Position numbers and translations under genes: made by a program
Shown here: positions 2,995 through 10,842 of the stretch, in pieces
How the letters are laid out: each line of letters begins with the position of its first letter
How positions within the stretch are numbered: the first letter of the stretch is position 1
The notes under the pieces: model-generated
What the model saw: only the letters and a program-made list of their open reading frames with translations
The model's database searches: none
What the model was told of the DNA's origin: nothing
UHGV virus genome: UHGV-0078064
Direction: 5' to 3' (one strand)
DNA length: 14,337 bases
Source: a virus

Positions 2995-3197
2995 ACGTAA
3001 AACCCTGCTGGCCCCCGGCGTCGTGATGTGGTGCCAACCTGAGATTCAAGGTCAGCAATATATTTTTTGAGATCGCTGACTGAAGTGGCTGTAAATTCCA
3101 CTCTTCGACCGTCTTTCTGTACCGTCGCCACGCGCTTTCCCATCATCAGGTCATGTAACGCAGCGCGCGCGGCATCCAGTTCAGTCTGTGTTGCCAT
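2991..3197 (-). CDS. W: Head-tail joining / head completion protein W
   Basis: 68 aa ([51 protein letters not shown]...[10 protein letters not shown]), matching lambda gpW as recalled. Sits between A and B as in lambda. Confidence 0.9.
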
Positions 3198-5119
3198 TAT
3201 TCATCTCCAGATAATGCCCGCGCGTAATCCGCCAGGGTCTTGTTATTGTTACGGCTGCCTTCTTCCTCCAGCAGGCTGGCCAGAAGTGAATCAAGATTTA
3301 GCTGCCAGCGGGATATGCTTATACGCAGCGCCGCCAGTGCATAAACAAAGCAATCGAGCGCCTCATTTCGTCGTTTTTTGCTGTCCCAGACGATCTTTTT
3401 CTTTCCGTCTACCCATTTTTCCACCTGCTCTTCAGCTGTTAGTTGTTGGGCCTCTGTTAGATCGTAGATTTCTGGGTTATTCGGGAAATGAACCGCTCCC
3501 GCCAGCGGCTCGTCTCTTTGCGCCACCAGCGTGAAACGGTTATAAATCTGCTCTTTTGCGGTGTCTGTTCCTACCTCTGTGAGGTAAACACCATTCTTGT
3601 TACGCTTGCGTGGCATGTTCGCCACTGGCTTTCCATAAACCGACGCCCCCTTTATAGGGATCACACGAAACAGACCGTGTTTTTTTGAGCGGTTGTAGAC
3701 GATGGTGGGATCAATGCCGCCAATATCCCAGCAAGTGCGGGATATAACCATTTCGAGACCGTTCTGGCGCTTATACGTCCTGTTGATCGCTTCATCAACT
3801 CGAGCGAGAGTCGACTCATCATCATGACGACCCATAATGATAATTTTGTCGATAAGCCAGCTTTCCTCTCCCGGCCCCCATCCCCAAACACGCATTTCGT
3901 AACGGTCAAGCTGGGAGTCAATACCCGCTGTCAGATATGCCACTCGCTCCGGCACAGACGCTTCAAAGTGCTCTTTTCGTTCCGCTAAAACTTCAGCATC
4001 GGGTCGTTCACCTATTTTCGGTTCCCACGTTTCGCCCAGGGTCGTGTTAACGAAAGTTTTTCGCTTACCCGTATCACCTTTTGTTTTTATCCAGTCCTTG
4101 ACGATCTGCACCCAGGTTGTGAACGGGCTATATGCGGTCCAGATGTGGAATGTAACGCTGTCAGGAGGTTCAATTTCGGTACCGGATGAAGAAAACCAGT
4201 TAAGGCCGTCTCGTGTCCAGATACCTGTTTCATCACAAATATACCTGGCCTCCAGAAATTCCAGCTCCTGTTGTTTAATCACACAGGCATTGTGTTCACA
4301 GAGGTAGTAAACGCTGGCAGGTTCTCCCGGAGACCATTTGAAGCCAAATGGTGTCTCTTTATCACCGAATTTCAGATACTGCTCTTCCCCACAGTGTGGG
4401 CATGGAACATGGAACCGAAGAAAATGTTCAGACTCCTTAGCAGCTCTTTCTATCTGGCACGTACCTTTGACTTTCGGTGTAGATCCGCGAATGGATTTCG
4501 GCCATACAGAACCCTCAATACGCTTATCACCCAGAAAGGTGGGAGAACCTTCTTTCTCGATGTCATCATCGAAAGCGGCGAGCTCGTCGTAGCCAGCCAC
4601 ATCAACTGATTTTTCACGGTAGTTTTTTGCAGCCTTACCGCCCAGGCACCAGAAACCACGACCATTCGAGAAACGCTTCATGCTCAGCGTATTGTCCCGG
4701 TGTTTTTTACCGTACCAGGGAGCAAGCGCCAGCAACGTCGGAATATCACGAATGGTCGGTTCTACATGAGACTTCATGAAGTTTTCAGCATCACCGTCGG
4801 TTGGTAACCATATTAGGGAGTTACGCTGTTTATGTTGGATGAAATATGCGTAAACGCCGAGCAACATTTTTGAGTAGCCGACACGAGCCGATTTAACGAC
4901 ATTCACCTCGCGAATATAGTCATTACCCATCGCATTCATAATTGCACGCTGAAATGGCAGTGTTTCCCAGCGCCCTTCCTGGTAGGCAGACTCTTTCGGG
5001 AGATAATAATTCTCATCTGCCCATTCAACTGCTGTTTGCGGTTGCGGCCGGTACAGCGAACGTAACCCCGCCCGCGCAGAGTGCTGCAGCCCCTTAACCT
5101 GACTGTTCGATATATTCAC
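3197..5119 (-). CDS. A: Terminase large subunit A
   Basis: 640-aa ORF near-identical to lambda gpA as recalled (lambda is 641 aa). Its start lies 26 nt inside the 3' end of Nu1, as in lambda. Confidence 0.95.
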
Positions 5120-5639
5120 TCAGCAACCCCGGTATCATTTCATCCAGCGCAGCTGCCTTGTTCATGGCCTTAATGATGTCCTTCTTGAGGAAATCAATAT
5201 GTCGGTTCTCCAGCTCCGGGAAGCGCCGCTGAACCGACAGAGGTATTCCATCGAGAATGCTGGCGATTTCTCCGGCTACCCGCGACAGCACGAACGTGCA
5301 GAATGCGGTCTCCACCACTTCAGCGGACTCTTTTGCATTTTTTAATTCCTGAGCGTCAGCCTGAGCTCGCGTAAGTCGGTGTCGCTCATATTCAATCGTG
5401 CCAGGTTGAAGATCGGACTCAGAAGCGATACGGAGATCTTCAACTTCCTTCCGCAACTTTTCATTTTCTATAGCTGCATCGCGCGCACTGTACCATTCGA
5501 TTGCAGCAGCAGATTCAAAGAGAACCTCATTACCTTTGCCACCACCGCGGACAACCGGCATACCTTGCTCCTGCCAGTTCTGAATCGTTCGGACGCTTAC
5601 CCCGAAAATTTCGGATAAGCGTTTTTTGTTAACCTCCAT
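5094..5639 (-). CDS. nu1: Terminase small subunit Nu1
   Basis: 181 aa, MEVNKK...IQNWQEQGMPV...GGGKGNEV... through ...[10 protein letters not shown], near-identical to lambda gpNu1 as recalled. Immediately downstream of the cosB R sites. Confidence 0.95.
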   Translation of the reverse strand: MEVNKKRLSEIFGVSVRTIQNWQEQGMPVVRGGGKGNEVLFESAAAIEWYSARDAAIENEKLRKEVEDLRIASESDLQPGTIEYERHRLTRAQADAQELKNAKESAEVVETAFCTFVLSRVAGEIASILDGIPLSVQRRFPELENRHIDFLKKDIIKAMNKAAALDEMIPGLLSEYIEQSG

Positions 5640-5835
5640 GGCTTACTCCTGGCAAAAAACAGAGAAAGGAAACAATCAACGGTAAACTTCCGTTTTCCTT
5701 GCTCAGCATTTCCTTTCTGGAGAGAGGACGTTTTTAACAAAAACAATGAGTAAACAAGAAGAAGAACGGAAATGGCATAAACCAGAAAATTTTCATAAAT
5801 AGCGAGAATCTGCGCGGACGCCGCCCCGTAACAAG
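5640..5835. other. cos: cos site: cosB (R1, I1, R2, R3 terminase-binding repeats) and cosN nicking region
   Basis: Reverse complement reads ...GTTACG GGGCGGCGTCCG CGCAGATTCTCGCTATTTATGAAAATTTTCTGGTTTATGCCATTTCCGTTCTTC...GTTTCCTTTCTC...ATG(Nu1), matching the lambda cos layout. R-like elements: gagaaaggaaac (about 5662-5673), tttcctttct in opposite orientation (about 5709-5718), gaagaacggaaatgg (about 5761-5775). Predicted 12-nt cohesive end is GGGCGGCGTCCG (+ strand about 5815-5826); lambda has GGGCGGCGACCT. Confidence 0.85.
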
Positions 5836-5884
5836 GCGGATCGCCGGAAAGGACCCGCAAACGATAATAATTATCAATTGCACA

Positions 5885-6349
5885 CTATCGACGGCACTGC
5901 TGCCAGATAACACCACCGGGGAAACATTCCATCATGATGGCCGTGCGGACATAGGAAGCCAGTTCATCCATCGCTTTCTTGTCTGCTGCCATTTGCTTTG
6001 TGACATCCAGCGCCGCACATTCAGCAGCGTTTTTCAGCGCGTTTTCGATCAACGTTTCAATGTTGGTATCAACACCAGGTTTAACTTTGAACTTATCGGC
6101 ACTGACGGTTACCTTGTTCTGCGCTGGCTCATCACGCTGGATACCAAGGCTGATGTTGTAGATATTGGTCACCGGCTGAGGTGTTTCGATTGCCGCTGCG
6201 TGGATAGCACCATTTGCGATAGCGGCGTCCTTGATGAATGACACTCCATTGCGAATAAGTTCGAAGGAGACGGTGTCACGAATGCGCTGGTCCAGCTCGT
6301 CGATTGCCTTTTGTGCAGCAGAGGTATCAATCTCAACGCCAAGCGTCAT
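5885..6349 (-). CDS. Hypothetical protein, cos-proximal late-strand accessory gene
   Basis: 154-aa ORF (MTLGVEIDTSAAQKAIDELDQRIRDTVSFELIRNG...) with ATG start, 12 nt downstream of the preceding gene's stop, ending 55-60 nt before cosN. No family recognised from memory. Occupies the position of lambda's post-bor ORFs but does not resemble them by size or order. Confidence 0.6.
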   Translation of the reverse strand: MTLGVEIDTSAAQKAIDELDQRIRDTVSFELIRNGVSFIKDAAIANGAIHAAAIETPQPVTNIYNISLGIQRDEPAQNKVTVSADKFKVKPGVDTNIETLIENALKNAAECAALDVTKQMAADKKAMDELASYVRTAIMMECFPGGVIWQQCRR

Positions 6350-6361
6350 CGAAGCGCAATA

Positions 6362-6613
6362 TTACTGCTCACCAAAACGCGTATTGACCAGGTGTTCAAC
6401 GGCAAATTTCTGCCCTTCTGATGTCAGAAAGGTAAAGTGATTTTCTTTCTGGTATTCAGTTGCTGTGTGTCTGGTTTCAGCAAAACCAAGCTCGCGCAAT
6501 TCGGCTGTGCCAGATTTAGAAGGCAGATCACCAGACAGCAACGCGCCACGGAAAAACAGCGCATAAAGCACTTCATTAGCAGCGCCAGATAGCGTAATGA
6601 TTTTGTTACTCAT
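6362..6613 (-). CDS. Hypothetical small protein, cos-proximal late-strand accessory gene
   Basis: 83 aa from the ATG at 6611-6613 (MSNKIITLSGAANEVLYALFFRGALLSGDL...), with AAGGAAA SD about 6 nt upstream. The ORF track's 96-aa version starts at a TTG at 6652 with no SD. No family recognised. Confidence 0.6.
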   Translation of the reverse strand: MSNKIITLSGAANEVLYALFFRGALLSGDLPSKSGTAELRELGFAETRHTATEYQKENHFTFLTSEGQKFAVEHLVNTRFGEQ

Positions 6614-6632
6614 GGAATATTTCCTTTTAGGC

Positions 6633-6686
6633 GTGAGCCTGTCGCACGGCAAAGCCGCCGAAAGTTAACGGTTTGCCCAGGCTCAC
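6633..6686. repeat. Perfect 9-bp inverted repeat GTGAGCCTG / CAGGCTCAC with a 36-bp spacer that contains a nested GGCAAA/TTTGCC pair
   Basis: Read directly: arms at 6633-6641 and 6678-6686, nested complementary hexamers at 6648-6653 and 6672-6677, GTTAAC palindrome in the centre. Lies 20-73 nt upstream of the 83-aa gene start. Confidence 0.7.
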
Positions 6687-6724
6687 AGCTGAAAGACTTT
6701 CTACGATGTGCGCGTGCGATGCGC

Positions 6725-6749
6725 ATAAAAAAGCCGCGTGATGGCGGCT
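6725..6749 (-). terminator. Candidate rho-independent terminator (minus strand)
   Basis: Minus-strand RNA: AGCCGC-CAUCAC-GCGGCU (6-bp GC-rich stem, 6-nt loop) followed by UUUUUAU. The + strand tail is weaker (ACUGUUUG). Confidence 0.55.
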
Positions 6750-6878: not shown

Positions 6879-7139
6879 ATGTCAGAAGGTTTTGGTTTAA
6901 AAGAAAAGGTTGAGCAGTTAGAAAAAGAATTAGCCGTACAAAAAATAGCAAATCAGCTTGCTTTTGGAGCACTAATTAAAGCAGTTAATGAGCTGTACCC
7001 GAACAAAGATTTATATGATGGGTTGACAAAATTTGTCCAGGAAAAACTTGATCCTGAACGTGTTAAAAACATCCCTAATCTTCACGAGGCCTTTCTAGAA
7101 GCTGCGAAAATACTGAGGACTGACGCATCTCCTGAATAA
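6879..7139 (+). CDS. Hypothetical protein encoded on the opposite strand, AT-rich (moron-like)
   Basis: 86-aa ORF (MSEGFGLKEKVEQLEKELAVQKIANQLAFGALIKAVNELYPNKDLYDGL...), with AAGGA SD 7 nt upstream of the ATG. Conspicuously AT-rich relative to flanking phage genes. It is the only convincing + strand gene in the window and sits where lambda has bor (also opposite strand), but the product is not Bor-like and has no lipoprotein signal. Confidence 0.6.
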   Translation: MSEGFGLKEKVEQLEKELAVQKIANQLAFGALIKAVNELYPNKDLYDGLTKFVQEKLDPERVKNIPNLHEAFLEAAKILRTDASPE

Positions 7140-7633: not shown

Positions 7634-8362
7634 TCAGGCCGCCGCATAGAGCAATTTCATCTGCCCTTTCACCGGGAATGCCGACATGCAACGCGCTTCG
7701 AAATCACGATAATCAGAGCACCCATTGGCAATGCTGGTAACGGCAATGATCTGTCGCTCAACCAATGTCAGCGCGTCAGGTTTAAGGTGCTGATGGATTT
7801 TGTCTCCCGCAGCCAGCCGTCTTTTAACCTCTGCATATACTTCTGGTGGTAATACCGGGCCATATACCCACTTGGCACTGATCATCCCAAATAGTGCGGG
7901 GCGACGACCTGGTCGATGACGGGGCAGCCCTGACATTTTGAACATCGCAGAATAAAACGGATCGCTAAACCTCTTTTCCCATGGCTGAGATTTATCCAGA
8001 AGGAAAATAGCCTTTATTCTTTCATCGTCGATATGATGAACGGAACCCTGAATGATTGCGTCAATTTGCTCATCACACCAGATCTCAAAATCTACAGAAA
8101 GCCATCGAGCAAATCTGACCGCCAGTTTTGGGTGAAGCCATGTTCCGCCGCCACGGTCTTTGCGAGCGCGGCTGGTTTTTACATATGTGATATTCCCATA
8201 TCTACTCTTTAACGCCTCGATGTAACGGACAGTCTCAGGAAGCCTAAGCCACTGAGCCGGCTCCTTGTTGAACTTGTCAGCTGCCGCAGTCGCGTCAAAC
8301 CAGCCATCGTCAGAAAAACGCATGGGATGGCCTTCGAAATCAATCGGGATGATATTGGACAT
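7634..8362 (-). CDS. KilA-N domain protein (N-terminal KilA-N/APSES-type DNA-binding domain; C-terminal half unassigned)
   Basis: 243 aa from the ATG at 8360-8362 (MSNIIPIDFEGHPMRFSDDGWFDATAAADKFNKEPAQWLRLPETVRYIEAL...GGGTWLHPKLAVRFARWLSVDFEIW), a pattern typical of KilA-N domains. AAGG SD about 9 nt upstream. The ORF track's 267-aa version begins at a GTG with no SD. Confidence 0.7.
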   Translation of the reverse strand: MSNIIPIDFEGHPMRFSDDGWFDATAAADKFNKEPAQWLRLPETVRYIEALKSRYGNITYVKTSRARKDRGGGTWLHPKLAVRFARWLSVDFEIWCDEQIDAIIQGSVHHIDDERIKAIFLLDKSQPWEKRFSDPFYSAMFKMSGLPRHRPGRRPALFGMISAKWVYGPVLPPEVYAEVKRRLAAGDKIHQHLKPDALTLVERQIIAVTSIANGCSDYRDFEARCMSAFPVKGQMKLLYAAA

Positions 8363-8512
8363 CGTATTTACCTTTTTGGTGATATGAGCCAGTTCTCGCA
8401 GACATGGACAGCCCAAGAGCGGCACGATGTAAGCCACCGTCCTGTCTCTGTCTCATATCCCGAAAAGCTCTTGGTTGATATGCGCACGAGAATGCGCGTT
8501 TACTGCGGACAT

Positions 8513-8568: not shown

Positions 8569-9006
8569 TTATTTCAGGCACTGAGTCCTGATGTACTCCT
8601 GCAGGTAGTTAACCTGCGCGGTTATCCTGTCGATTCCACTTCGGAGACGGTAATAATTGAGTTCAGCATCTGCTGTAAGTCTTGGGCTTTCTCCATCGCC
8701 CATGCCGCTGGCTCCGGTCGTTGACTTTGCACAGGTGGCGGCGACTTGCAGGCGCTTACGCCCAGCAGAAACATCAGCACGGAGACTTTCGATAGTCGCG
8801 TTAGCATCAGCAAGCTCCTTTGTATATCTGGCATCGAGTTCTGCTACATCACGTTGACGCTTCTGCATGTCAGCAATAGTGGATGCGGCTTTGTCGCGCT
8901 GTTCTTTGTAGGCGATTGCATTATCACGGTAATGATTAACAGCCCATGACAGGCAGACGATGATGCAGATAACCAGAGCGGAGATAATCGCGGTGACTCT
9001 GCTCAT
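8569..9006 (-). CDS. Rz: Spanin, inner-membrane subunit (i-spanin) Rz
   Basis: 145 aa; the N-terminus [31 protein letters not shown] matches lambda Rz as recalled. Start overlaps the R stop (ATGA). Confidence 0.92.
8622..8807 (-). CDS. Rz1: Spanin, outer-membrane lipoprotein subunit (o-spanin) Rz1, embedded in the +1 frame of Rz
   Basis: 61 aa from the ATG at 8805-8807: [20 protein letters not shown] (signal peptide with VSAC lipobox) followed by a proline-rich segment [13 protein letters not shown]. Entirely embedded in Rz, the lambda architecture. Confidence 0.8.
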
Positions 9007-9479
9007 ACCTCAATCTCTCTGACCGTTCCGCCTGCCTCTTTGAATTTTGCAATCAGGCTGTCAGCCTTATGCTCGAACTGACCATAACCAGCGCCCGGCA
9101 GTGAGGCCCAGATATTGCTGCAACGGTCGATTGCCTGACGAATATCACCGCGGTCAATCATCGGTAAAGCGCCACGCTCTTTAATCTGTTGCAATGCCAC
9201 AGCGTCCTGGCTTTTCGGAGAGAAGTCTTTCAGGCCAAGCTGCTTACGGTAGGCATCCCACCAACGGGAAAGAAGCTGGTAACGTCCGGCGGCTGTTGAT
9301 TTGAGTTTGGGGTTTAGCGTGACAAGTTTGCGAGGGTGATCGGAGTAATCAGTGAATAGCTCTCCGCCTACAATGACGTCATAACCATGATTTCTGGTTT
9401 TCTGACGTCCGTTATCAGTTCCCTCTGACCATGCCAGCATATCGAGGAACGCCTTACGTTGATTATTGATTCCCACCAT
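9003..9479 (-). CDS. R: Endolysin R (lytic transglycosylase)
   Basis: 158 aa, essentially identical to lambda R as recalled ([53 protein letters not shown]...). Overlaps S by 17 nt as in lambda. Confidence 0.95.
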
Positions 9480-9786
9480 CTTCTACTCCGGCTTTTTTAG
9501 CAGCGAAGCGTTTGATAAGCGAACCAATCGAGTCAGTACCGATGTAGCCGATGAACACGCTCGTTATATAAGCGAGATTGCTACTTAGTCCGGCGAAGCC
9601 GAGAAGGTCACGAATGAACCAGGCGATAATGGCGCACATCGTTGCGTCGATTACTGTTTTTGTAAACGCACCGCCATTATATCTGCCGCGAAGGTACGCC
9701 ATTGCAAACGCAAGGATTGCCCCGATGCCTTGTTCCTTTGCCGCGAGAATGGCGGCTAACAGGTCATGTTTTTCTGGCATCTTCAT
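9463..9786 (-). CDS. S: Holin S (class I, with the Met1-Lys2-Met3 dual-start holin/antiholin motif)
   Basis: 107 aa, [62 protein letters not shown]..., near-identical to lambda S107/S105 as recalled. Confidence 0.95.
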
Positions 9787-10218: not shown

Positions 10219-10842
10219 CTAACGTGTGACTGCGTTCAAAATGTTGCCTGCGATTGACTCTTCCTTGTGGCATTGCACCACCAGAGCGTCATACAGCGGC
10301 TTAACAGTGCGTGACCAGGTGGGTTGGGTAAGGTTTGGGATTAGCATCGTCACAGCGCGATATGCTGCGCTTGCAGGCATCCTTGAATAACCGACGCCTT
10401 TACATCTTCCGCACTCTTTCTCAACAACTCTCCCCCACTGCTCTGTTTTTGCTATATCAACTGCCCGACCTGTTCCGTGGCAATCTCTGCATCTTGCGCC
10501 CGGCGTCGCAGCACTACGGCAATAATCCGCATAAGCGAATGTTGCGAGCACTTGCAGTACCTTTGCCTTAGTATTTCCTTCGAGCTTTGCCACACCACGG
10601 TATTTCCCCGATACCTTGTGTGCAAATTGCATCAGATAGTTGATAGCCTTTTGTTTGTCGTTCTGGCTGAGTTCATGCTTACCGCAGAATGCAGCCATTC
10701 CGAATCCGGCTTGTGATTGCGCCATCCCCATAGCAGCCATAACATCAGTACCGGAAAGAGAGTCAGAAGCCGTAGCCCGTGGTGAGTCGCTCATCATCGG
10801 GCTTTTTGGCGAATGAAATTTAGCTACGCTTTCGAGTCTCAT
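10219..10842 (-). CDS. Q: Late-gene antiterminator Q
   Basis: 207 aa, essentially identical to lambda Q as recalled (MRLESVAKFHSPKSPMMSDSPRATASDSL...CRDCHGTGRAVD...ECGRCKGVGY...). Start overlaps the ninH stop. Confidence 0.95.
   Translation of the reverse strand: MRLESVAKFHSPKSPMMSDSPRATASDSLSGTDVMAAMGMAQSQAGFGMAAFCGKHELSQNDKQKAINYLMQFAHKVSGKYRGVAKLEGNTKAKVLQVLATFAYADYCRSAATPGARCRDCHGTGRAVDIAKTEQWGRVVEKECGRCKGVGYSRMPASAAYRAVTMLIPNLTQPTWSRTVKPLYDALVVQCHKEESIAGNILNAVTR

What the first reader, a model, noticed from the sequence alone, without database searches (positions are those of the whole stretch)
5885..6613. Two cos-adjacent late-strand genes of unknown function
The 83-aa and 154-aa genes lie between a minus-strand terminator and cosN, with the second ending under 60 bp from the nick site. 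Both have plausible starts and are on the late strand, so in a concatemer or prophage they would be transcribed by Q-antiterminated read-through just before the packaging genes. They do not match the size or order of lambda's two post-bor ORFs. Genes adjacent to cos are occasionally packaging accessory factors (for example HNH endonucleases in HK97-like phages), but these carry no motif I recognise.
Basis: partly seen in the sequence, partly recalled or inferred. Interest (0 to 1): 0.45.

Follow-up and report, generated by a model that had tools for sequence, protein, structure and literature searches.

The report
One phage gene split by stop codon
The two small "genes" next to the phage DNA-packaging site are the two halves of one known, dispensable phi80-type accessory gene cut by a single C-to-T stop mutation, so the finding is ordinary, apart from an unannotated, highly conserved RNA-like leader in front of it.

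Summary
The ORFs exist as described: 83 aa at 6613..6362 and 154 aa at 6349..5885, on the minus (late) strand, between a terminator and cosN. They are not two genes. They share one reading frame, separated by one TAA and four codons. Phage phi80 orf66 and about 100 complete E. coli genomes carry a single 242-codon ORF here. The window differs from the Nissle 1917 allele by one base (window 6364, CAA to TAA at codon 84).

The intact protein has an N-terminal winged-helix domain, which is exactly the 83-aa piece. The stop falls at the first residue of a segment homologous to the central straight fibre of tail-tip protein J, followed by a long helix.

A packaging role is unlikely. The gene sits before at least five terminase types, and phi80 lacking orf62-66 still forms plaques.

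The stop allele is real: it occurs in many independent assemblies and in at least three prophage backgrounds. It is far less common than the intact allele, and other truncating lesions occur nearby. I read it as recent loss of a dispensable accessory gene.

A ~105-nt structured leader directly upstream is 95-100% conserved, precedes unrelated cargo genes in at least 120 viral contigs, and has no Rfam match.

The parts
5885..6613 (-). One 243-codon reading frame, homolog of phi80 orf66 (PHROG 17079; named 'Fur-regulated protein' by NCBI; N15/phiKO2 gp59-like), interrupted by an in-frame TAA at codon 84
6362..6613 (-). 5' fragment of 83 codons plus TAA. It encodes a complete winged-helix domain
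6362..6364 (-). Ochre codon TAA. The changed base is window 6364 (gene nt 250, C to T). All intact homologs read have CAA (Gln84)
5885..6349 (-). 3' fragment, a 154-codon ORF starting at the internal Met89. No Shine-Dalgarno sequence; could be translated only by reinitiation after the TAA 12 nt upstream
   Evidence: Identical to residues 89-242 of the intact allele
6083..6367 (-). Segment (residues 83-177 of the joined protein) homologous to the central straight fibre part of tail-tip protein J
   Evidence: Pfam PF09327 at 23-30 bits, cutoff 22. BLASTP against phi80 J residues 1063-1129, E 3e-4; family member P0153 against J 1048-1137, E 2e-9. 668 phage records hit; those listed fall in J/tail-fibre genes where annotated. 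Solved homologs of that J region
6614..6722 (-). Conserved structured leader of about 105 nt ending at the Shine-Dalgarno sequence. A long hairpin whose lower stem pairs with the SD and the AUG
   Evidence: No Rfam family
6724..6749 (-). Intrinsic terminator (AGCCGC-CATCAC-GCGGCT plus a T run) immediately before the leader
   Evidence: The homologous position is annotated as a terminator in HK639 and phiKO2
5827..5881 (-). cosQ / R4 region, abutting the stop codon
   Evidence: Aligned without gaps to the phi80 feature 46084-46138, 'cosQ; aka R4 region'
5815..5826 (-). cosN cohesive-end sequence GGGCGGCGTCCG (N15 type)
   Evidence: N15 left end. PMC4669245
5094..5639 (-). Small terminase subunit (Nu1 type), first gene after cos

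Best explanation
SHOWN. The 83-aa and 154-aa ORFs are the two halves of a single accessory gene, the homolog of phi80 orf66 (PHROG 17079; N15/phiKO2 gp59-like). A single CAA-to-TAA transition at codon 84 (window 6364) splits it. The intact gene encodes a 242-aa protein with two parts. The N-terminal part is a small acidic winged-helix domain. The C-terminal part begins with a segment homologous to the central straight fibre of tail-tip protein J and ends in a long helix and a conserved PGG..RR tail. The stop falls at the junction between the two parts. The gene is the last one before cos and the packaging genes. It is preceded by an intrinsic terminator and a conserved structured leader.

INFERRED. 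The gene is transcribed only by Q-modified polymerase late in infection. The leader hairpin, which pairs with the SD and AUG, limits or times its translation. In this window the winged-helix fragment is still made. The J-like fragment is lost or made only at a low level by reinitiation at Met89, so the allele is a recent null or hypomorph of a dispensable gene.

MOST LIKELY ROLE OF THE INTACT PROTEIN (inference, about 0.3-0.4). It is a tail-tip-related accessory or conflict protein. Its J-like trimer-forming module would engage J, or proteins that recognise J, in the same 'upstream of packaging' moron hotspot that holds the Tai/Ati tail-assembly defence pair in phi80. It is not a packaging factor.
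For: Single gene split by one base:
- Same frame, and one PHROG profile covers both ORFs.
- phi80 has one annotated CDS, with CAA where the window has TAA.
- One CDS is annotated in all but one of the 60 E. coli genome hits listed, of 99 that cover the region.
- There is a one-base difference from the Nissle allele.
- All seven homologs read have QQ at positions 83-84.
- An exact look-up finds the intact allele on at least 1000 contigs, against 66 and 75 for the two fragments.

The intact gene is functional: dN/dS is 0.08-0.14 for the N domain and 0.35-0.47 for the C part.

Domains:
- J homology is shown.
- A long C-terminal helix is predicted.

Not a packaging factor:
- The gene sits before several different terminase types.
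- phi80 lacking orf62-66 is viable, and only the orf64 deletion lowered titre (PMC11364771).

Late expression: a terminator upstream and no promoter-like site.

Leader: fold energy -43 kcal/mol, z -2.9, with SD and AUG paired.

Hotspot: tai homologs lie predominantly upstream of the packaging module (PMC11364771).

Decay: other truncating lesions occur nearby, namely stops at codon 83 and frameshifts near codons 75 and 87.
Against: - The function is not demonstrated anywhere. PADLOC gives no hit, and there is no similarity to TaiEcA.
- The J-like segment matches the phage's own J no better than other J proteins.
- The similarity of this particular allele to J is weak (E 3e-4; Pfam 23 bits against a cutoff of 22), and the J-like part is poorly modelled as a monomer (pLDDT below 50).
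- The winged-helix domain is acidic, so DNA binding is not assured.
- For the 'simple loss' reading: the TAA allele has spread into at least 3 upstream contexts and 2 cosN types with no further change in 729 nt. The stop also sits exactly at the domain junction with an ATG 4 codons downstream. Both points leave room for a functional split.
- The single orf66 deletion is mentioned in the text of PMC11364771 but is not listed in its strain table.
Confidence: 0.85

Rival explanations
1. Functional gene fission. The stop at the domain junction yields two working proteins: the winged-helix domain, and the J-like domain made by termination-reinitiation at Met89. The split form would be maintained by selection.
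For: - The stop lies exactly at the boundary between the winged-helix domain and the first J-like residue.
- An in-frame ATG lies 12 nt downstream.
- The allele occurs in 121 collection blocks. The 10 loci read are 100% identical over 729 nt, yet sit in at least 3 different upstream modules and 2 cosN types.
- The same stop occurs on the phi80-type N-terminal variant (P0130).
- Standalone N-domain genes (P0288, P0290) and standalone C-domain genes with their own starts (P0265, P0191) exist.
Against: - From general knowledge, TAA followed by T is an efficient terminator.
- There is no Shine-Dalgarno sequence before Met89.
- The allele is a small minority (66-75 contigs against at least 1000).
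- Neighbouring alleles carry frameshifts near codons 75 and 87 and stops at codon 83, which look like random decay.
- Zero divergence from the intact allele means the mutation is very young, so its spread can be hitch-hiking with the Nu1/A packaging module.
Confidence: 0.12
2. Two independent cos-adjacent genes, one or both acting as packaging accessory factors.
For: - RefSeq annotates two CDS in strain ECONIH4.
- The position directly before cosQ is conserved.
- A winged-helix fold is also what small terminase subunits use to bind DNA (general knowledge).
Against: - There is one frame and one profile, and relatives carry one CDS.
- The gene is found before at least five unrelated packaging modules.
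- In the HK97-type loci the HNH gene is a separate downstream gene.
- phi80 lacking orf62-66 forms plaques.
- In HK639 and Enterobacter prophages, relatives sit in the tail module, far from cos.
Confidence: 0.02
3. Sequencing or assembly error: the TAA is an artefact and the gene is intact.
For: It is a single-base difference from a very common allele.
Against: Both fragment sequences are present in many independent assemblies from NCBI, ENA, JGI and Logan (66 and 75 contigs; 121 blocks), in different prophage contexts.
Confidence: 0.01

Closest known systems
Phage phi80 orf66 (PHI80_66, AFV29203.1, 'ORF x171.28; similar to N15 gp59'); PHROG 17079; NCBI name 'Fur-regulated protein'
   Same: 98% identical protein and 97% identical DNA. 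Same position (last gene before cosQ), same strand, same upstream leader.
   Different: The window carries TAA at codon 84. Its first 48 nt are of the Nissle type rather than the phi80 type. Its cosN is N15 type. The upstream neighbours in phi80 (taiEcA, atiEcA) are absent here.
N15 / phiKO2 gp59 and the N-domain genes of mEp043, mEp213 and mEp237
   Same: They share the 83-aa winged-helix module (60-84% identity). They are preceded by a terminator; the mEp genes also carry the conserved leader.
   Different: The C-terminal parts differ. mEp237_062 is 155 aa, and phiKO2 gp59 is 241 aa with tblastn similarity only over the N-terminal ~83 residues. The phiKO2 gene lies away from cos.
Tip attachment protein J (lambda J; Pfam PF09327 Phage_Tail_Tip; 'central straight fiber')
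   Same: Residues 83-177 share the motifs QYxAxMxLGVE, the VFIKDAxI motif and YNIxLG...ADxFxV with J 1040-1130 of phi80, which corresponds to lambda J about 841-933. Relatives such as SP016_00205 also carry a J-type FN3 piece.
   Different: The protein is one fifth the size of J. It has no hub domains and no receptor-binding C-terminus. It is fused to a winged helix and encoded outside the tail operon. It is not a J ortholog.
TaiEcA / AtiEcA tail-assembly-inhibition defence and counter-defence of phi80 (He et al. 2024, PMC11364771)
   Same: Same moron hotspot upstream of the packaging module. Both relate to the C-terminal region of J: Tai escape mutations map there, and gp66 resembles it. atiEcA (orf64) likewise lies in the Q-controlled late operon.
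   Different: There is no sequence similarity to TaiEcA. The orf64 deletion, not the orf66 deletion, gave the counter-defence phenotype. No function has been shown for orf66.
RBS-occluding or RNase III-processed phage mRNA leaders, such as the lambda N leader (general knowledge, not tested)
   Same: A long imperfect hairpin immediately 5' of a start codon, with the SD and AUG paired in the lower stem.
   Different: There is no sequence relation and no Rfam family. The element travels with many unrelated cargo genes. Its mechanism is untested.

Membership tests
phi80 orf66 / PHROG 17079 / 'Fur-regulated protein' | Full-length sequence homology to the 242-aa family profile | tested here: met
   ORF1 matches profile positions 1-83 (E 2.5e-52) and ORF2 matches 89-242 (E 6e-105). 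98% identity to phi80. 658 homologs found.
phi80 orf66 / PHROG 17079 / 'Fur-regulated protein' | Uninterrupted reading frame of about 242 codons | tested here: not met
   TAA at codon 84. The window holds a nonsense allele of the family gene.
phi80 orf66 / PHROG 17079 / 'Fur-regulated protein' | Position after the lysis genes and directly before the packaging module, on the late strand, behind a terminator and the conserved leader | tested here: met
'Fur-regulated' (as the NCBI name implies) | Regulation by Fur | not testable with these tools
   The name is inherited from database annotation. No paper found here tests it. Only a Fur-box-like palindrome in the cosQ region was seen by eye.
Packaging accessory factors next to cos (e.g. 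HK97-type HNH endonuclease) | HNH or other nuclease/terminase-associated motif | tested here: not met
   No such Pfam or NCBIfam hit. In HK97-type loci the HNH gene is a separate gene downstream.
Packaging accessory factors next to cos | Co-inheritance with one terminase family | tested here: not met
   Full-length genes are found before Nu1/GpA, HNH plus Terminase_4/TerL and DUF1441 modules. N-domain-only remnants are found before DUF2280 and Terminase_2/3 modules.
Packaging accessory factors next to cos | Needed for phage production | not testable with these tools
   Literature only: phi80 lacking orf62-66 plaques normally on a naive host, and of the single deletions only orf64 lowered titre (PMC11364771).
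Lambda post-bor ORFs | Sequence similarity to the lambda genes between bor and cos | tested here: not met
   tblastn of the joined protein against all phage records returned no lambda record at E <= 1e-5.
Tai tail-assembly inhibitors | Homology to TaiEcA | tested here: not met
   BLASTP E 0.9. No PADLOC hit (PADLOC 2023 predates Tai).
Tip attachment protein J | PF09327 / central straight fibre segment | tested here: met
   The match is weak for this allele and clear for family members.
Tip attachment protein J | Full J architecture (hub, FN3 domains, receptor-binding end; about 1100-1200 aa; located in the tail operon) | tested here: not met
   242 aa. Only J residues about 1040-1130 are matched.
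MarR/PadR-type winged-helix regulators | Winged-helix fold | tested here: met
MarR/PadR-type winged-helix regulators | Sequence-family membership, dimerisation helices, DNA binding | tested here: not met
   No Pfam or NCBIfam hit. The domain is only 83 aa with no flanking dimer helices and has a net acidic charge (read from the sequence). DNA binding itself was not testable.

The most novel reading that the evidence does not exclude
The terminator plus the ~105-nt leader (window 6749-6614) may be the 5' end of a mobile 'late moron cassette'. In this reading the leader is an undescribed cis-regulatory RNA that keeps the SD and AUG paired until some late signal opens it, such as RNase III cleavage, temperature or a phage factor. 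It would be used by lambdoid phages of E. coli, Salmonella and Klebsiella to drive at least 10 unrelated cargo genes. Its commonest cargo is a hypervariable family of small J-fragment proteins, this gene included, which would act on tail-tip assembly in phage-phage conflict as decoys for, or poisons of, J.
Probability: 0.3. Interest if true: 0.55.

Novelty: already known. Interest (0 to 1): 0.25.

Why it matters
For the finding as given, the practical points are about annotation:
- The two RefSeq-style 'hypothetical proteins' should be read as one disrupted gene.
- The cos-adjacent position should not be taken as a hint of a packaging role.

Two by-products may be worth a specialist's time:
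- The phi80 orf66 / N15 gp59 family turns out to be a mosaic of a winged-helix module and fragments of the tail-tip protein J. It sits in the hotspot that holds the Tai/Ati tail-assembly defence pair, which gives a concrete hypothesis for a gene that has had none.
- A near-invariant structured leader precedes many unrelated accessory genes in lambdoid phages and is absent from Rfam. This is a testable candidate for a new translational control element.

Tried and rejected
- Pfam, NCBIfam and PADLOC scans gave no functional family beyond a marginal PF09327 hit. The CcdA and FrmR hits were noise.
- PDB sequence searches with the single protein, the family profile and HK639_13 found nothing useful.
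- The AF2 model of the full 242-aa protein was poor (pLDDT 59; residues 114-179 below 50), so it was not used for fold search.
- TaiEcA homology was rejected.
- The idea that the J-like segment tracks the phage's own J was rejected: cargo proteins match the J proteins of phi80, HK639 and Fraca about equally.
- The idea that the standalone C-domain gene P0265 is a tail assembly chaperone was rejected. It lies after the major tail gene, but inside a moron-rich gap with Arc and Bro-N genes, and the true chaperone-sized genes sit next to the tape measure gene.
- I first took the window to be E. coli ECONIH4. The 801-bp gene region is 100% identical, but the leader differs by one base and the upstream genes differ, so the source is another genome with the same allele.
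- Literature searches for 'Fur-regulated protein', N15 gp59 and the leader sequence itself gave nothing on function.
- The Rfam isrK hit (17.6 bits against a gathering score of 50) lies on the terminator upstream and was dismissed.
- The BFVD fold search returned only uncharacterised viral winged-helix proteins.

Full report
**What is in the sequence.** The late genes of this lambdoid element are on the minus strand of the window. In order they are:
- Q (10842..10219)
- holin (9786..9463)
- Rz (9006..8569)
- a KilA-N/P63C gene (8437..7634)
- the region in question
- cos
- Nu1 (5639..5094), A (5119..3197), W, portal and the S49 protease

(compare the annotation of a near-identical prophage.)

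The 83-aa ORF (ATG 6613 to TAA 6364-6362) and the 154-aa ORF (ATG 6349 to TAG 5887-5885) exist as described. An intrinsic terminator on the same strand lies at 6749-6732. The stop of the second ORF lies 58 nt before the cohesive-end sequence GGGCGGCGTCCG at 5826-5815. That is the N15-type end, differing from lambda at positions 9 and 12 (PMC4669245). The 55 bp between the stop and cosN align without gaps to the phi80 feature 'cosQ; aka R4 region'.

**The two ORFs are one gene.**
- They are in the same frame, separated by TAA and four sense codons.
- PHROG 17079, a 242-position profile, matches ORF1 at positions 1-83 and ORF2 at 89-242.
- Phage phi80 has a single 242-codon CDS here (PHI80_66, 'ORF x171.28; similar to N15 gp59'). 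In the DNA alignment the only difference across 680 consecutive bases is C in phi80 against T in the window, turning CAA (Gln84) into TAA.
- Against the E. coli Nissle 1917 and MEI4O1-23 prophage alleles, the whole 729-nt stretch differs by exactly that one base, gene nt 250 = window 6364.
- Of 106 complete E. coli genomes with the region, 99 cover it. All but one of the 60 listed carry one annotated CDS. The exception is ECONIH4, which has the same TAA and is annotated with two hypothetical CDS.
- All seven homologs from E. coli, Citrobacter and Salmonella that I read have Gln-Gln at positions 83-84.

**The stop is real, recent and recurrent.**
- An exact-sequence look-up finds the intact protein (Gln84, otherwise identical) on at least 1000 contigs. 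The 83-aa and 154-aa fragments are on 66 and 75 contigs from NCBI, ENA, JGI and Logan. This excludes a sequencing artefact.
- Ten loci with the split allele are 100% identical over the 729 nt. They lie behind at least three different upstream arrangements, with different Q, holin and spanin types; one has a Tai-like 204-aa antisense gene. One of the ten has a lambda-type cosN rather than the N15 type.
- The same cluster holds other lesions close by:
  - stops at codon 83 (P0132, P0135);
  - the codon-84 stop on the phi80-type N-terminus (P0130);
  - frameshifts near codons 75 and 87.
- Elsewhere there are C-terminally truncated forms (P0012, P0105).
- Between E. coli, Salmonella and Citrobacter alleles, dN/dS is 0.08-0.14 for codons 1-83 and 0.35-0.47 for codons 85-242. 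The intact gene is therefore under purifying selection in both parts.
- I read the window's allele as a very young loss-of-function, or hypomorphic, mutation in a dispensable gene, spread by recombination together with the Nu1/A packaging module.
- The alternative is that the split is itself functional. It keeps some probability, about 0.12. In its favour, the stop sits exactly at a domain junction, an ATG follows after four codons, and standalone N-domain and C-domain genes exist. Against it, there is no Shine-Dalgarno sequence before that ATG, and from general knowledge TAA-T is an efficient stop.

**What the intact protein looks like.**
- This domain has no Pfam family. It is net acidic, and it lacks the dimerisation helices of MarR proteins, so DNA binding is not assured.
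- In BFVD it matches only uncharacterised phage proteins.
- The full-length model is poor between residues 114 and 179 and predicts a long helix at 185-230.
- The start of the C-terminal part is homologous to tail-tip protein J:
  - Pfam PF09327 (Phage_Tail_Tip) scores just above its cutoff for this allele and higher for 224-aa variants.
  - Residues 83-142 align to phi80 J 1063-1129 (E 3e-4).
  - The family member P0153 aligns to J 1048-1137 (E 2e-9).
  - Its middle part finds 668 phage records; those listed fall in J/central tail fibre genes wherever the record is annotated, apart from the family's own gene in Fraca.
- That J region corresponds to lambda J about 841-933 and to chains named 'central straight fiber' in the PDB.
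- The TAA replaces the first residue of this J-like segment (QQYCASMTLGVE against J QYYAAGMGIGVE).
- The family is small, with 114 representatives at 50% identity among 1.84 billion proteins. It is strongly mosaic. The winged helix, a second N-terminal module, J-type FN3 and fibre pieces, and a conserved C-terminal helix ending in PGG..RR are combined in proteins of 150-330 aa.

**Why it is not a packaging factor.**
- Full-length family members sit directly before lambda-type Nu1/GpA (window, phi80, L018), HK97-type HNH plus Terminase_4/TerL (L014-L017, L019) and DUF1441 (Nissle 1917) packaging modules. N-domain-only remnants sit before DUF2280 and Terminase_2/3 modules.
- In HK639 and in Enterobacter prophages, relatives lie after the major tail gene, far from cos.
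- In phi80, He et al. 2024 (PMC11364771) deleted orf62-orf66 and obtained a plaque-forming phage. They state that, of the single deletions of orf62, 64, 65 and 66, only orf64 (atiEcA) reduced titre. The strain table lists the orf62-66 deletion but not a single orf66 deletion.
- That paper also shows that the region upstream of the packaging module is a moron/immunity hotspot. There orf63 (taiEcA) blocks tail assembly of other phages through the C-terminal region of J, and orf64 counteracts it.
- gp66 is not homologous to TaiEcA. It matches its own phage's J no better than other J proteins.
- My functional proposal is therefore an inference with modest confidence. I propose a late-expressed accessory protein whose J-like, probably trimer-forming, module engages J or J-recognising proteins during tail-tip assembly or phage-phage conflict.

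**The leader.**
- The 109 nt between the terminator and the start codon (6722..6614) are 95-100% identical in 22 phage records. Among them are phi80, mEp043/213/237, mEp390, HK639, Fraca and FSL SP-016. This holds although the DNA upstream is unrelated and the coding sequences downstream diverge immediately.
- Copies at 70-78% identity in Klebsiella phages and in 'Elizabethkingia' phage EKP1 precede unrelated genes.
It gave 110 distinct versions, followed by cargo ORFs in 10 unrelated similarity groups. The largest group is the J-fragment family (63 of 94). Others include a 485-aa glycosyltransferase-like protein, a membrane protein and several small proteins.
- As RNA, the element folds at -43 kcal/mol (z -2.9) into a long hairpin whose lower stem pairs UCUUU with the SD and UCGU with AUGA.
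- Two inner-stem pairs show compensatory double changes, for example C-G 54, G-C 30, U-G 17 and U-A 5. The outer stems could not be tested because my search pattern fixed them.
- It has no Rfam match and is unannotated in the 122 complete E. coli genomes that carry it. No paper in the library contains its sequence.
- It looks like a translational-control or processing element of a mobile accessory-gene cassette. This is the most novel thing in the neighbourhood, but it is not what the finding was about and it remains untested.

**Verdict.** The feature is a nonsense allele of a catalogued, dispensable phi80-type gene of unknown function, so interest is low. The domain analysis and the conserved leader give two concrete hypotheses for follow-up.

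Noticed in passing
window 6614-6722 (minus strand), with the terminator at 6724-6749: A ~105-nt leader is 95-100% conserved across many lambdoid phages while both flanks differ. It precedes at least 10 unrelated cargo gene groups in at least 120 viral contigs. It folds into a long hairpin that pairs with the SD and AUG, shows some compensatory changes, and has no Rfam family or annotation.
   Followed up: partly
window 5863-5875 (minus strand), inside the cosQ/R4 region: The palindrome GATAATTATTATC matches 13 of the last 14 positions of the Fur-box consensus as I recall it (15 of 19 overall). A Fur-titration clone containing cos could be the origin of the inherited name 'Fur-regulated protein'. 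This is unverified.
   Followed up: no
window 5815-5826: The cohesive end is the N15 type (GGGCGGCGTCCG), although the adjacent gene and cosQ are 97% phi80-like. One of ten otherwise identical loci (L027) has the lambda type (GGGCGGCGACCT), so there is a recombination joint inside cos.
   Followed up: partly
window 6879-7139 (plus strand): An 86-aa ORF (MSEGFGLKEKVEQLEKEL...) lies antisense to the late operon between the lysis genes and the leader, and gene callers report it in 8 related loci. The arrangement is the same 'non-contiguous operon' layout as taiEcA in phi80. It has no Pfam hit.
   Followed up: no
L007-L010 (Enterobacter prophages), 4001-4495: A standalone homolog of the 154-aa part (P0265, 164 aa, with its own start) lies directly after the major tail protein gene and before a DUF6246 gene. 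This is a moron-rich gap (Arc, Bro-N/antirepressor, ORF6N) ahead of the tape-measure gene.
   Followed up: partly
L034 (HK639) 1623-2303; L035 (FSL SP-016) 1611-2384: HK639_13 (after the major tail gene) and SP016_00205 carry the same leader and belong to the same mosaic family. SP016_00205 is essentially a mini-J: an FN3 piece plus a fibre piece, E 4e-11 against phi80 J.
   Followed up: partly
window 7634-8437 (minus strand): A KilA-N plus P63C domain gene (267 aa, antirepressor-like) sits in the late operon between Rz and the accessory region.
   Followed up: no
window 9003-9479 (minus strand): The 158-aa ORF at the endolysin position, between holin and Rz, gave no Pfam hit at E <= 0.01.
   Followed up: no
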